Below are positions 7,396 through 39,743 of a stretch of 64,000 nucleotides of DNA, piece after piece. The stretch comes from Octopus vulgaris. Lineage: Eukaryota. The notes beneath the pieces were generated by a model, which did no database searches, was not told the origin of the DNA, and saw only the letters and a program-made list of their open reading frames with translations. Numbering within the stretch: position 1 is the stretch's first letter; every line of letters starts with the position of its first letter. The DNA lies in contig OX597819.1 in the NCBI GenBank assembly GCA_951406725.2, positions 73,904,001 through 73,968,000 of the forward strand. Direction: 5' to 3'. The translations under genes were made by a program, and so were the position numbers.

Positions 7396-8500
7396 ATATA
7401 TATATATATATATATATATATATATATATATATATAATATAGTAAGACGTGGAATATAAGCCACTGAAAACATCTGTGTATCACGTGTATCTTTCTCTCT
7501 CTCTCTCTCTCTCTCTCTCTCTCTCTCTCTCTCTCTGTGATCATTGGTTAATGAGGTATCTGACACCTGAGCCCCTAGACACGAAAATCTGGCTTGCTAT
7601 GATCTAGTGGGCAACAGACTTTATACTGATAAAACAATAGAAGGATAGCTGAATAGCGGATGGAATTGGTATGCTTCAAGAACAACAAATCGTTTACAAA
7701 GAACACAGCTATGAAATCCGTTTACCGATACAGAAACTGATATCTAGCCAATAAAAAACAGAACAAACAAAAAGAAAACATCTTCCAGTTCCTTTTTCTT
7801 TAAATTCCTTATCCTTATCTTTCTGTGACCGGTTAGTTCTCACCAATGATTTTGTTTTGCTCGTAATATTTAAATGTGATCCTGTGACTAACATTCAACA
7901 TAGTATTTCTTTTATTTTTCTTTTATTTCTTTTACTTGTTTCAGTCGTTTGACAGCAGCCATGCTGGGGCACCGCCTTTAGTCGAAAGAATTGACCCCCA
8001 GGGTTTATCCTTTGTAAGCCTAGTACATTATCTTGCCAAACCGCTAGGTCACGGGGATGTAAAAATGCCATCATTGGTCGTCAAGCGACATTGTGGGGAC
8101 AAACACAGACACACAAATACACACTTACATACATCTTTCTCTCTCTCTCTCTCTTTCTCTCTCTCTCTCCCTCTCGCCCCCCTCTCTCTCTCTATATATA
8201 TATATATATACATATATACATAGAGATTATGAGGAGTAATGGTGTCAATAAGACCCAAAGGTGTCAGGTAATGCTGAGTCAGTGCTATGGACAGACTATA
8301 GTTAAGCTCCAGGTTCGGTGATTATGCGAATGAGGAGTCCAACATAGGTCATATATCAGCATGTGTATATATAAAAATTTGCAGAATGAGATAAAATTCC
8401 AAGGCTGTGAAAGATTTTAGAACATTTATAAATTTCTCCACTTCACTCTTTATTTCATATCTTATCTAAAATAACTATTGCTTAACCATTTTCTCACACC

Positions 8501-8548
8501 GTCTCCAATGAAGGGATATATAAAATACCCTGGAAACAGCTGTAAGAC
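8501..8548 (+). ncRNA. Type I hammerhead ribozyme, degenerate core (CCAAUGA)
   Basis: GUCU-CCAAUGA-AGGG/CCCU-G-GAAAC AGCU GUA-AGAC. Lies in the spacer of inverted repeat 8393-8433/8551-8590. Confidence 0.7.
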
Positions 8549-9271
8549 CTATTTATAAATGTTCTAAAATATTTCACAGCCTTGGATTTTGTTGAAGTAC
8601 AGAAAAAAAAAGAAACACTTCAGGTAAAATATAGACCCTGAATGCAAATGAAGCCGAACTGTTTGTAAAGCATTATTTAGTCCGGAGCCTTAGCGATGTT
8701 TTCCATAATTCTAATGATATTTAGAAAAAAAACTGAAAGCGTATAGTTTGTAATTTAATTGTGCTCAACAGCTGTTTTAATAGCATAAAACATCATTATG
8801 ATGTTGCGAAAACATCATTACGTCATTAAAATATATAATTAATTTAATGATAGGCGCAGGCATGTCTGCGTGGTTAAAAAGGTTGCATTGGAACCAAGTG
8901 GTTTCGGGTTCAGTTCCACAGCATGGCAACTTGGTTAAGTGCGTTCTACTATAGCCTTGTGCTGACTAAAGCCTTGTGGTAGAGGGCAACTGTAGAAACT
9001 CGACATATATATGTGTGTGTATGCACATATATATATATATATATATATATATATATAGTGTGAAATAGAAAGATGAATAATCTTGTTGCAGATTAATCAA
9101 AAGTTTAACCGATACCTTGGTAGCAAAAATCACAGCAGAAGACAGCACGGTTGGAGGTACAACCATATGGTGTTGCAACCGTGCGTTGGTGCGGATAATT
9201 GAATTTTAATATTATTAGTGAATTGAAGAAATGGAGTTGAACGAAGATTGAACAGAAATCGTTTTATTGCA

Positions 9272-9351
9272 TTCTACACGTGTTTCGAAAGGCACAATTT
9301 ACCAAATTCCGATTGAATAAGGAGACCATATTGTGTCTTTCTCTTCAGGAA
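9272..9351 (-). ncRNA. Type I hammerhead ribozyme, intact core (left arm)
   Basis: Mirror image of 9531-9610. Confidence 0.85.
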
Positions 9352-9530
9352 GAAATAGGAAATCCGTTGGAAAAAACAAAAACAGAACAGAGGCGGAGCA
9401 AAACAAATCGAACGAGGCTCCTAAGAGCCCATGGCCAAACTCTTTGGCCATGGGCTCTTAGGAGCCTCGTTCGATTTGTTTTGCTCCGCCTCTGTTCTGT
9501 TTTTGTTTTTTCCAACGGATTTCCTATTTC

Positions 9531-9610
9531 TTCCTGAAGAGAAAGACACAATATGGTCTCCTTATTCAATCGGAATTTGGTAAATTGTGCCTTTCGAAAC
9601 ACGTGTAGAA
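9531..9610 (+). ncRNA. Type I hammerhead ribozyme, intact core
   Basis: UUC-CUGAAGA-[GAAAGACACAAU/AUUGUGCCUUUC]-GAAAC ACGU GUA-GAA. Confidence 0.85.
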
Positions 9611-10817
9611 TGCAATAAAACGATTTCTGTTCAATCTTCGTTCAACTCCATTTCTTCAATTCACTAATAATATATATATATATATATATATATATATATA
9701 TATATATATATATATATATATATATATATATATATATATATATATGTATATATGTATGTATGTATGTATGTATGTGTGTGTGTGTGTGTGTGTATGTATC
9801 TGTGTGTGTTTGTTCTCCACTATCGTTTGACAACCGGTGTTGGTTTTTTACGTTCCCTTAACTTCTGCAGTTCAGCAAGAGAGTTTTATAGGAAAAGTAC
9901 CAGATTTGTGAAAAAAAAAAAAAAAAAGAAAAAAGAAAAAGGAGAAAGAAAGGTAAGAATGTAATGGGGTTGATTTGCTTCGACAATAATTCTTCAAGAT
10001 GATGTTCCAGCATGGTTGCAGTTCACTGACTCAAACAAAAAAAAGTTAAAAAGTAAAAAGATGCTGTTCCCATTTTTCAATTCTCACAGGCACTTTATAT
10101 GAGGAACAATCAACTACGCCCCTTCTCTCGTTAATAATAATAAAAAAAAGGTTTACACTTCAATGACATCACACATTTACAAAAACAACAATTATACAGA
10201 AATATAAAAATATTTCCTTACCTTGGCCATTCACATTTCCCATGTTATAATTTATTCACCTTTCGAAGTTTTTCTTGTTTTTGTAAATTCCACTTATAGA
10301 ACTTTCCTTTTTAAAATTAGTAAAATTCCGAAAAATCCCAAACGCTTCAAAGCCAAGTTCTAAAGCAAACACTTAATACGTTCTTGTTTCTTTGGTCAGT
10401 GTATGTTAAATGTCTCTTGGTTAAGTGATCGTTCCCTTGGATGCTTGTTCCTAGATTTTTCTAATCTTCTTAGAGAATACAAAAGAGATAATGTCCACAA
10501 AATCCACAATTATGCTGAAATTACTAGCCTGGATTCATTCTCGAATTATCATCTTCGTTATTAAGATGACCGTCGGCATCTTCCCCATTGTCGTCATGGC
10601 GTTTATAATTACATTCTGCAATGACAAGGAAAATCGGAAATAGCACGGACATATCACGTTTAGCTTTACAGCAACTGGATTGCAACCTGTTTCTCTTTCA
10701 CTTGTCTCTCTCTTCCTACCCCTTCACACTCATACATACACGCGCGCATGCTCACACATACACACATGCACACAGACACAGACACACACACAAACACATG
10801 TAGTTATGTATATATTC

Positions 10818-37471: not shown

Positions 37472-37780
37472 TGATGACTAATTTGTTGTTAATAATAAAC
37501 AATTATTAACTTCCCAATCTCATGTTCTTTTTCCTCTTATATATATATCTATATATATATATATATATATATATATATATATATGTATATATATACACAT
37601 ACATACATATACATATATATGTGTGTATGTGTGTGTATGTGTGTATGTGTGTGTATGTGTGTGTGTGTTGTGTGTGTGTGTCTGTGTCTGTGCTTGTCAC
37701 CCCACCATAACTTGGTGTGTTTACGTCCCCGTAACTTAGCAGTTCAGCATAAGCTATCGATAGAATAAGTACTTATCTCA

Positions 37781-38198
37781 TCTACTATCCTCAGATTCTT
37801 TCCCATCAAACTTTGGTTTCCAATATTTTATTATTTTTATTCAGCTCGCAAGTTCGTCTGTCCCTATAAAATGTTAGTGTTTTGCTGTCTGCCTTGAAGC
37901 AGACCTTTCCGTTGTCACTGCTTGATATTTATGATTGATCTTTCAAAATATTTTTCTTTCTCAACTTACTCAAGATCTTTTGTTGTTTATAAATGGGAGA
38001 GAGATAGATAAAGAAAAATAGAGAGTAAGAGAAAGCGAGGGAGAGTCCGAGAGAAATGAAGAGTAAGAGAGTGGGAAAGTGAGAGAGAAAGGAGAGAGAA
38101 ACAAAGAGGGAAAATGTGGTGATAAAAAACAGAAAAGAAGCAACAGAAAGTAACAACCACACTCTTACCTGCGCGTGGAGCGGGCCACCTTAGGCTAG
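37781..38198 (+). mobile_element. Putative non-autonomous Helitron
   Basis: A|TC start; subterminal GC hairpin cctgcgcgtggagcggg; CTAG|T end. A similar 3' end (cccgagcaaggccggg...cttgt) lies at 37099-37128. Confidence 0.5.
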
Positions 38199-39491
38199 TA
38201 TATATATATATTACTCTTTTACTGGCTTCAGTCATTTGAGTGTGGCCATGCTGGAGTACCATCTTTTATTTGAAGAAATCGCCCCCTGGACTTATTCTTT
38301 GTAAGCCTGGTGCTTATTCTATCGATATCTTCTGCCGAACCGCTAAGTTACGGAGACGTAAACTCACCAACACCGGTTTCTAAGCGATGGTGTGTGTGTG
38401 TGTGTGTGTGTGTGTAACAAACACAGACACAAATGCACACTCATAGGATAGACTTCTTCCAGTTTCCACAACGAAATCCACTGACATGGCTATAGTAGAA
38501 GACACTTGCCCAAAGTGCCATGCAGTGGGACTGGACCCGGAACCATGTGGTTCGGAAGCAAGCTTCTTACGACACAGCCAATCCTGGAAAAAATGTATTG
38601 AACGAAGCAGAAGACAGAAGCTCGTTCTATTTGGAACGTAATAATAACAGGAAATACTATAGCAAATAGTATGTTGATTGTGTTGCGTAAGTCTGAGTCA
38701 GAGCCGGAACACTACTGTCCGTTCATTAGACATTATGTTTTTATCTTGTTATTTTTAGAGTTCGTTGTGTAGCAGAGAAGCTGATTTTGTAGCCACGCAG
38801 TACCGGGTTCAGTCCAACTACACGGCACCTTCAGCAGGTGTCTTCTGCTATACACACGGGCTGAGCAAAGCCTTGTGTGTGTATTTTGTAGACAGAAACT
38901 GTGTGGAAGCTCGTCGCGTGGCTTTGATTGCCAGATGAACGGCGCATTGTATTCATGAGAGCAAAGCACTTAATTCGATGTTGCTTCAGGCCACTCGGCT
39001 GTAAATGGCTCACTCTGAAACGGACAAGACTTCCAATCAGGGGACAACGTTGGCATGCTCGCCTAGCCAGTGGGGTGGCATCATTCAACAGCTAAAAACA
39101 ATGTAAAGCGCATTGTGACCAGTGATGTATTACAACGTCCGTAGTCTGGTCAATCACTTGATATATATATATATATATATATATATATATATATATATAT
39201 ATATGTAAATATATATATATATATAGGCGCAAGCGTTGCTGTGTGTTAAGAAGCTTGCTTCTCAACGAAATAGTTCCGGGTTCAGTCCCACTGCATGACA
39301 CCTGAGCATGTCTTTTACTATAACCTCGGGCCAACCAAAGCCTTGCGAGTGGATTTAGTAGATGGAAACTGAAAGAAGGTCACATAAACACACACACATA
39401 TGTGTGTGTGTGTGTGTGTATATATAAGAAAGAAGCAAACTCTAAAAAATAGAGCAGTAATTATTACAACAAAAATTTTAATTTTGGACAT

Positions 39492-39550
39492 AGAGTTACC
39501 CAAGGTTTCGCATCCACAAACAAAGCCTTGTGGACAGCTCATCAGACTCT
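39492..39550 (-). ncRNA. Type I hammerhead ribozyme, canonical core
   Basis: AGAGU-CUGAUGA-GC[CCACAA/UUGUGG]GC-GAAAC CUUGG GUA-ACUCU. Confidence 0.88.
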
Positions 39551-39655
39551 CTTTAAATACAAAATTTAAATATCTACATCCTCGAGTTCTGAGCGTTTTC
39601 TCAAAATTTAAATTTAAATACAAAATTTAAAATATTTAAAATTTTGTCTTTGTAT

Positions 39656-39715
39656 AGAGTCTGACGAGCTGGCCACAAGGCTTTGCTTTGTGGGTGCGAA
39701 ACTTTGGATAACTCT
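39656..39715 (+). ncRNA. Type I hammerhead ribozyme (CUGACGA core)
   Basis: AGAGU-CUGACGA-GC[CCACAAGG/CUUUGUGG]GC-GAAAC UUUGG AUA-ACUCU. Confidence 0.82.
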
Positions 39716-39743
39716 ATGTCCAAGTCTATTGGACTTTCCGCTA

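What the first reader, a model, noticed from the sequence alone, without database searches (positions are those of the whole stretch)
8393..39723. Polarity rule: every HHR-bearing inverted repeat has element 3' ends pointing outward
In 9209-9673, 14585-15043, 34408-37773, 35929-36263 and 39484-39723 the sense HHR is on + in the right arm and on - in the left arm. 8393-8590 shows the same polarity. Inference: both ends of a cut target prime reverse transcription on the element 3' end and the cDNAs join in the middle. Because (TA)n is self-complementary, both ends offer the same primer. Inverted pLTRs are known in Penelope, but a target-symmetry explanation is a testable extension.
Basis: partly seen in the sequence, partly recalled or inferred. 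Interest (0 to 1): 0.75.

Follow-up and report, generated by a model that had tools for sequence, protein, structure and literature searches.

The report
Head-to-head Penelope insertions need no symmetry
The outward-pointing mirror repeats are real and are the already described head-to-head insertions of Penelope-like jumping genes; they are likely made when both cut DNA ends copy the element's RNA from two different start points, and they also form at target sites that are not self-complementary, so (TA)n symmetry is not required.

Summary
The polarity rule is real but published. Family A (9209-9673): 52 of 52 two-armed insertions point outward. In 600 kb of fixed-step genome samples, 20 independent ribozyme-oriented repeats point out and 2 in; control SINE pairs split 27:26. 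Arkhipova 2013 already calls head-to-head the most frequent form. Priming from both target ends is supported with one correction: the arms start at two different RNA sites. In 50 of 52 exactly one arm carries the 150-nt tail, never both. In 21 of 50 neither arm contains the other, which argues against fold-back. Target symmetry is not required: a hammerhead family whose (AAT)n is internal inserts into unique DNA with non-palindromic 8-16 bp duplications (19 of 36, none palindromic), yet 18 of 30 copies are two-armed (TA families: 24 of 29, 23 of 30; differences not significant). One cited case, 34408-37773, is likely a later inversion with duplicated flanks, not such an insertion. This scan has reached the twin-priming reading before on other DNA (35 findings, at least 14 genomes, unchecked notes).

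The parts
9209..9439 (-). Family A left arm: 3' pLTR of an endonuclease-bearing Penelope-like element, hammerhead core at 9348 on -
9058..9208 (-). Family A 151-nt tail, on the left arm only, followed by (TA)n at 9027-9057; in tandem copies this sequence runs on into the ORF
9443..9673 (+). Family A right arm, tail-less, hammerhead core at 9534, ends in (TA)n
8200..8433 (-). Family I left arm (8394-8433) plus its about 190-nt tail; no hammerhead in this arm
8434..8590 (+). Family I right arm with decayed hammerhead (8505-8546), tail-less
14580..14749 (-). Family H left arm; its outer end abuts a piece of another hammerhead family
14879..15095 (+). Family H right arm running to the family's long end, then (TA)n; hammerhead-like motif with non-canonical core
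34408..34859 (-). Left copy of a SINE end + (TA)n + family C segment; likely one breakpoint duplication of a later 2.4-kb inversion
37252..37773 (+). Right, inverted copy of the same segment (98% identical); family C continues 5' of it, the SINE is cut at 37773
35927..36101 (-). Family B left arm, tail-less, abuts (TA)n; only the 3' half of the hammerhead
36090..36342 (+). Family B right arm with about 75-nt tail; only the 3' half of the hammerhead
39426..39603 (-). Family D left arm, hammerhead core at 39545, longer 3' end
39604..39723 (+). Family D right arm, hammerhead core at 39661; stops short of the family's usual ends, where a copy of another hammerhead family follows
49171..49537 (.). 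In-window counter-example to target symmetry: family S insertion between a non-palindromic 10-bp duplication (49171-49180, 49528-49537); short inverted arm 49179-49210, head remnant 49236-49254, internal (AAT)n 49255-49331, hammerhead body and tail 49335-49525 on +
13473..13790 (.).
47248..47571 (.). Further outward palindrome (47297-47571) with a 49-nt one-sided extension on the left, between (TA)n tracts
47852..48190 (.). Second family B palindrome, tail on the left, too short to hold the hammerhead

Best explanation
These are head-to-head insertions of endonuclease-bearing Penelope-like retrotransposons, likely made by twin priming: the enzyme would cut both target strands, one DNA end would start reverse transcription at the tail end of the RNA and the other at the pLTR end, and the two 5'-truncated copies would be joined in the middle. 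Shown: outward polarity, one tail per insertion, non-nested arms, short overlaps or inserts at the centre, one target duplication around the whole unit, an intact coding parent. Inferred: the order of events, the use of one enzyme complex, and the repair route. Outward polarity follows from target priming itself, because copying runs from the element's 3' side inwards from each end. (TA)n is the target preference of some families, not the cause of the mirror.
For: Family A: 52 of 52 two-armed loci outward, 50 with exactly one tailed arm, none with two tails or two pLTR ends, 21 of 50 non-nested; three more multi-kb repeats plus a tandem-bearing one show the same. Family B: 23 of 30 two-armed, every partner arm tail-less. 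Family H: 16 pairs in the hit table, all with the same polarity. Family S: 36 of 59 loci two-armed, none with a downstream inverted body, 19 of 36 with an exact 8-16 bp duplication against 8 of 1260 cross pairs, none palindromic. Arms share subfamily alleles within an insertion. In vitro a Penelope-like protein cuts and extends both strands and starts at two RNA sites that bound the tail (PMC11167929).
Against: No biochemical or RNA data here. Non-nested arms could also arise by later deletion at a palindrome centre, although family A copies are 98-100% identical. 12 of 64 family-A loci show one arm only (two run off the fetched stretch). Family S duplications are slightly more self-complementary than shuffles (0.387 against 0.314, sd 0.039) and its two-armed fraction is lower than family A's (18 of 30 against 24 of 29, p 0.08), so a small symmetry effect is not excluded. 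Family S's mobilising enzyme was not identified. One RNA versus two RNAs is unresolved. Exceptions: L088 and L258 have two tails.
Confidence: 0.72

Rival explanations
1. One reading: both ends prime on the same 3' end because (TA)n is self-complementary; mirror insertions need a symmetric target.
For: Families A, B, D and H mostly abut (TA)n; family A ends fall at TA/AT-compatible letters of the RNA at both start sites; slight excess symmetry in family S duplications; TA families have a somewhat higher two-armed fraction.
Against: Two different ends are used in 50 of 52. Family S gives the same structure at unique sites; 0 of 19 duplications are palindromic or (TA)n, and the last three bases of the two primers agree in only 2 of 19. 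The frequency differences are not significant (p 0.08, 0.36, 0.27).
Confidence: 0.08
2. Self-priming or fold-back: one long copy (an antisense RNA as proposed by Arkhipova 2013, or the first cDNA) folds back and is copied to give the second arm.
For: Predicts head-to-head polarity, short palindromic overlaps at the centre and shared alleles; 29 of 50 family-A pairs are nested or equal; published proposal (PMC3846280).
Against: The tail-less arm cannot template a tail, and the tailed arm cannot template sequence it lacks; 21 of 50 pairs break this, for example L037 (45-nt tail-only arm beside a 2.7-kb tail-less arm), L001, L005, L041.
Confidence: 0.14
3. The mirrors are made at DNA level after insertion (inverted duplication or inversion) or are two independent insertions side by side.
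For: True for a minority: 34408-37773, L088, nested L168, and the inward pair in L122, which is two copies separated by (TA)n and unrelated sequence.
Against: Would not give one tail per pair, a single target duplication around the whole unit, or a 52:0 bias; SINE neighbours split 27:26.
Confidence: 0.06

Closest known systems
EN+ Penelope-like insertions with inverted pLTR and optional tail (Adineta vaga Pen2a; Arkhipova et al. 2013, PMC3846280; passages and Discussion read)
   Same: Head-to-head inverted pLTRs, tail at one of the inverted pLTRs, target duplication around the whole unit, short palindromes at the junction.
   Different: That paper explains the form by self-priming on an antisense template; the non-nested arms here argue against it. 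Tails here are about 45-190 nt rather than 31.
Hydra clade of C-terminal EN+ PLEs (Craig et al. 2021, PMC8557442; passages and Hydra section read)
   Same: Family A: single ORF, C-terminal GIY-YIG-like region, DKT motif, CxxC and CxH near the end, canonical hammerhead, (TA)n targets, tandem and inverted forms, tail at one end.
   Different: Unit is 3.62 kb rather than under 3 kb; RWL instead of RWK; no CxCX5C linker seen; no tree was built.
PAc Poseidon element in vitro (Frangieh et al. 2024, PMC11167929; parts 1-2 of 4 read, main text through the start of Methods)
   Same: Both strands cut and extended; two reverse-transcription start sites bounding the tail; AT-rich targets; predicted dimer.
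   Different: In the text read, the paper does not pair one start site with each strand in a single insertion, nor explain inverted pLTRs by it.
L1 twin priming (Ostertag and Kazazian 2001; recalled, not read)
   Same: Two target ends prime on the RNA and give an inverted 5' piece with both pieces' 3' sides outward.
   Different: In L1 it is occasional, the second site is variable and the pieces do not overlap; here it is the majority form, the second site is fixed and the arms usually overlap.

Membership tests
EN+ Penelope-like elements (family A) | Single ORF with RT and C-terminal GIY-YIG endonuclease | tested here: met
   899-residue open frame, Met at residue 5, in tandem locus L312 with RT-type motifs (FDIASFYPSI, MGS, YRDD) and a VY...YVG region near the end, read by eye; Pfam and PDB sequence searches gave no significant match
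EN+ Penelope-like elements (family A) | Tandem or partial-tandem organisation forming pLTRs | tested here: met
   Three copies at 3.62-kb spacing on C1
EN+ Penelope-like elements (family A) | [quoted passage not shown] | tested here: met
   50 of 52; the tail runs on into the ORF start in tandem copies
EN+ Penelope-like elements (family A) | Hammerhead motif in the pLTR with short palindromic helix III | tested here: met
   Descriptor hits, 112 in family A loci; description in PMC4209133 (passages); cleavage not tested
EN+ Penelope-like elements (family S) | Target duplication around the whole inverted unit | tested here: met
   19 of 36 exact, 8-16 bp
EN+ Penelope-like elements (families S, B, C, D, H, I) | Link to a coding RT-EN parent | not tested
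   Only a tblastn of family A's protein on the 59 family S loci was run; one hit, lying beyond the element's 3' end. An earlier unchecked note claims a coding parent for a tRNA-headed family.
Hydra clade (family A) | DKG modified to DKT | tested here: met
   SDKT in P0002 (definition)
Hydra clade (family A) | CxxC and CxH around the conserved E and N; CCHH absent | tested here: met
   CNLC..E and CPH near the C-terminus; one Cys only in the GIY-YIG-like core
Hydra clade (family A) | RWK motif and CxCX5C linker | tested here: not met
   RWL present; no CxCX5C seen in the linker, so clade membership is not claimed
Hydra clade (family A) | Phylogenetic placement | not tested
   No reference proteins were fetched

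The most novel reading that the evidence does not exclude
Penelope-like elements integrate by near-obligate, asymmetric twin priming: each insertion uses the tail-end start site on one target strand and the pLTR-end site on the other, whatever the target's symmetry. This single rule would explain the inverted pLTR, the one-sided tail and the head-to-head polarity, and would replace the published antisense self-priming model. I did not find it stated in the papers read (searches), but this scan has proposed it many times.
Probability: 0.6. Interest if true: 0.5.

Novelty: already known. Interest (0 to 1): 0.27.

Why it matters
How Penelope-like elements build their tandem and inverted ends is an open question (Craig 2021). 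The polarity is not news, and the target-symmetry idea fails as a requirement. What is useful is the count: one tail per insertion and non-nested arms give a sharp prediction for the existing in vitro system. The result also warns that flank-including mirrors such as 34408-37773 are DNA rearrangements and should be left out of such counts.

Tried and rejected
Rfam scan: only miRNA-like hairpin matches below gathering scores and one weak hammerhead hit elsewhere in the window. Strict hammerhead descriptors missed most decayed copies. A vote-based orientation was noisy, giving mixed calls at palindromes, and was replaced by a library anchored on the ribozyme and its downstream sequence. 73 of 97 non-SINE inverted repeats in the random set stayed unoriented and were not counted. 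ARAGORN found no tRNA in 8 family S loci, so 'tRNA-like head' is my reading by eye. Pfam and PDB did not recognise the ORF. (AAT)n as a target was rejected for family S. Rejoining of the presumed inversion breakpoints could not be shown: both flanks had no other match among the loci held. Shared-variant test: 5 private shared against 21 unshared changes in 24 pairs, which cannot separate one RNA from two or from gene conversion. Dropped before the family A count: 16 loci that duplicated other fetched loci, and L011 (cut by its edge) was replaced by L048. No RNA reads were laid. Supplements of the papers were not opened; they may hold relevant insertion data.
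Full report
Setting. The window is G000:C6:73904001-73968000 of a 2.8-Gb genome; earlier scan notes call this genome an octopus. Family letters below are my own labels.

Observation. Self-comparison finds all six inverted repeats. The hammerhead-sense strand is - on the left and + on the right in each. Both cores are intact only at 9209-9673 and 39484-39723. At 35929-36263 both arms start inside stem II; at 14585-15043 the core is non-canonical family-wide; at 8393-8590 only the right side has the motif. Four more outward units lie in the window: 13473-13642, 47297-47571, 47921-48185 and 49171-49537.

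Is the bias general? In 60 stretches of 10 kb taken at fixed steps there were 97 non-SINE inverted repeats within 3 kb. 24 could be oriented by a ribozyme-anchored library: 22 rows outward (20 independent, three rows being one nested locus) and 2 inward. One inward row is a weak 35-bit match; the other is two separate copies with (TA)n and unrelated DNA between them. SINE pairs split 27 out, 26 in, 5 conflicting; Fisher p 0.0013. In family A, 52 of 64 unique loci are two-armed and all 52 point outward. Family H shows 16 pairs of one polarity in its hit table.

What the elements are. The 9209-9673 arms are the 3' pLTR of a coding element: L037 holds a 5'-truncated RT-endonuclease frame and L312 a tandem array with a 3.62-kb unit and an 899-residue open frame. 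It has several Hydra-clade marks (DKT, CxxC, CxH, (TA)n targets) but lacks RWK and the CxCX5C linker, so I call it Hydra-like only. No Pfam or PDB match supports the motifs, which were read by eye.

The arms differ at their outer ends. In the window the left arm goes on for 151 nt (9058-9208) before (TA)n; the right arm stops at the pLTR end. In tandem copies this tail runs on into the ORF. Of 52 two-armed loci, 50 have one tailed and one tail-less arm, none has two of a kind, and 2 have a second arm that ends early. In the set found with a pLTR query, which does not select for tails, it is 27 of 28. In family B all 23 partner arms are tail-less; that search did select tailed copies. In 21 of the 50 pairs the tail-less arm reaches more than 10 nt further 5' than the tailed arm, so neither can be a copy of the other; in L001, L005, L037 and L041 the tailed arm is only the last 40-65 nt of the tail. 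Of 22 simple centre joints, 13 overlap by 1-9 nt, 2 are blunt and 7 carry 1-25 nt inserts, as expected from end joining of two new strands (inference). Inner ends cluster at -216 to -241 (18 of 53), possibly the RNA start (inference).

Test of target symmetry. The element at 49335-49525 (family S) has a tRNA-like head, an internal (AAT)n, a hammerhead and a roughly 45-nt tail. It inserts mostly into unique AT-rich DNA. With a tail-containing query 18 of 30 loci are two-armed (21 if three inverted head-only pieces are counted); with a body-only query 18 of 29; no locus of 59 has a downstream inverted body. In the body-only set 13 pairs have one tail by the script, 2 more by reading the flanks, 1 has two tails and 2 are unclear. 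19 of 36 have an exact duplication of 8-16 bp around the whole unit, against 8 of 1260 cross pairs; none is a palindrome or (TA)n, and the last three bases of the two presumed primers agree in 2 of 19. The window's own copy is an example (49171-49180 and 49528-49537). Two-armed fractions for tail queries: A 24 of 29, B 23 of 30, S 18 of 30; p 0.08 and 0.27. Against my reading: S is lower, and its duplications are about 1.9 sd more self-complementary than shuffles, so a short motif shared by the two nick sites may matter. The samples are the top-scoring hits only, and family S is older, which lowers detection. A fully self-complementary target is not needed.

The odd case. At 34408-37773 the arms match at 273 of 279 and the flanking SINE parts at 81 of 83, whereas the best other family copy is 87%. 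Neither arm has the family tail. The left side holds the whole SINE; the right side holds more of family C. This fits an inversion with staggered breaks that duplicated one segment (inference; the mechanism is recalled from the literature). It should not count as evidence for the priming model.

Literature. Arkhipova 2013 (PMC3846280; passages and Discussion) states that head-to-head is the most frequent arrangement, notes the optional tail on one inverted pLTR, and proposes antisense self-priming. Craig 2021 (PMC8557442; passages and one section) draws the tail at one end, notes (TA)n bias and calls the mechanism open. Frangieh 2024 (PMC11167929; parts 1-2 of 4) shows cutting and extension of both strands and two start sites bounding the tail. 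Cervera 2014 (PMC4209133; passages) describes the minimal hammerheads. A 2026 preprint on retrozymes (passages) had nothing on polarity. Three searches showed no paper that pairs one start site with each strand or tests target symmetry; the library is incomplete and supplements were not opened. Earlier unchecked notes of this scan reach the same twin-priming reading in at least 14 genomes and in this one; I had stated that reading before opening them, and they are not independent support.

Verdict. Polarity: real, already known. Two-ended priming: likely (0.72), with two distinct start sites. Target symmetry as the cause: not supported. Interest 0.27.

Noticed in passing
window 34408-37773: Likely a 2.4-kb inversion flanked by an inverted duplication of about 450-520 bp (SINE end, (TA)n, family C piece).
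   Followed up: partly
window 49171-49537; L081-L110, L232-L260: Abundant element with a tRNA-like head, internal (AAT)n and hammerhead (3061 first-look candidates); many palindromes fold at the head.
   Followed up: partly
L311/L312 (G000:C1:119.51-119.53 Mb): Tandem array of family A with intact frames, copies 99.9% identical: a young, possibly active source.
   Followed up: partly
L111-L170: About 50 further short palindromes in 600 kb could not be oriented; many have (TA)n flush on one side and 40-155 nt away on the other, the same one-tail pattern.
   Followed up: no
family A loci L011, L016, L018, L025, L030, L059: A second cluster of inner arm ends near -396, besides the one at -232; family B has one at -211.
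   Followed up: no
L041:8521-9502: A whole two-armed unit is repeated head to tail with an identical centre joint; L052 and L076 share one joint on different contigs.
   Followed up: no
L088; L168:8302-8716: Later inverted duplications that mirror an element together with its flank, or mirror a whole palindrome.
   Followed up: partly
L009, L066: Centre joints with several short rearranged pieces of the element, suggesting template jumps.
   Followed up: no
window 26006-26750 and 59630-60067: Tandem arrays of SINE-type units (periods 184 and 227).
   Followed up: no
window 15175-15340, 16010-16250, 36440-36580, 39740-39870, 44240-44500: Further hammerhead-bearing fragments beside (TA)n without an obvious long partner arm.
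   Followed up: no
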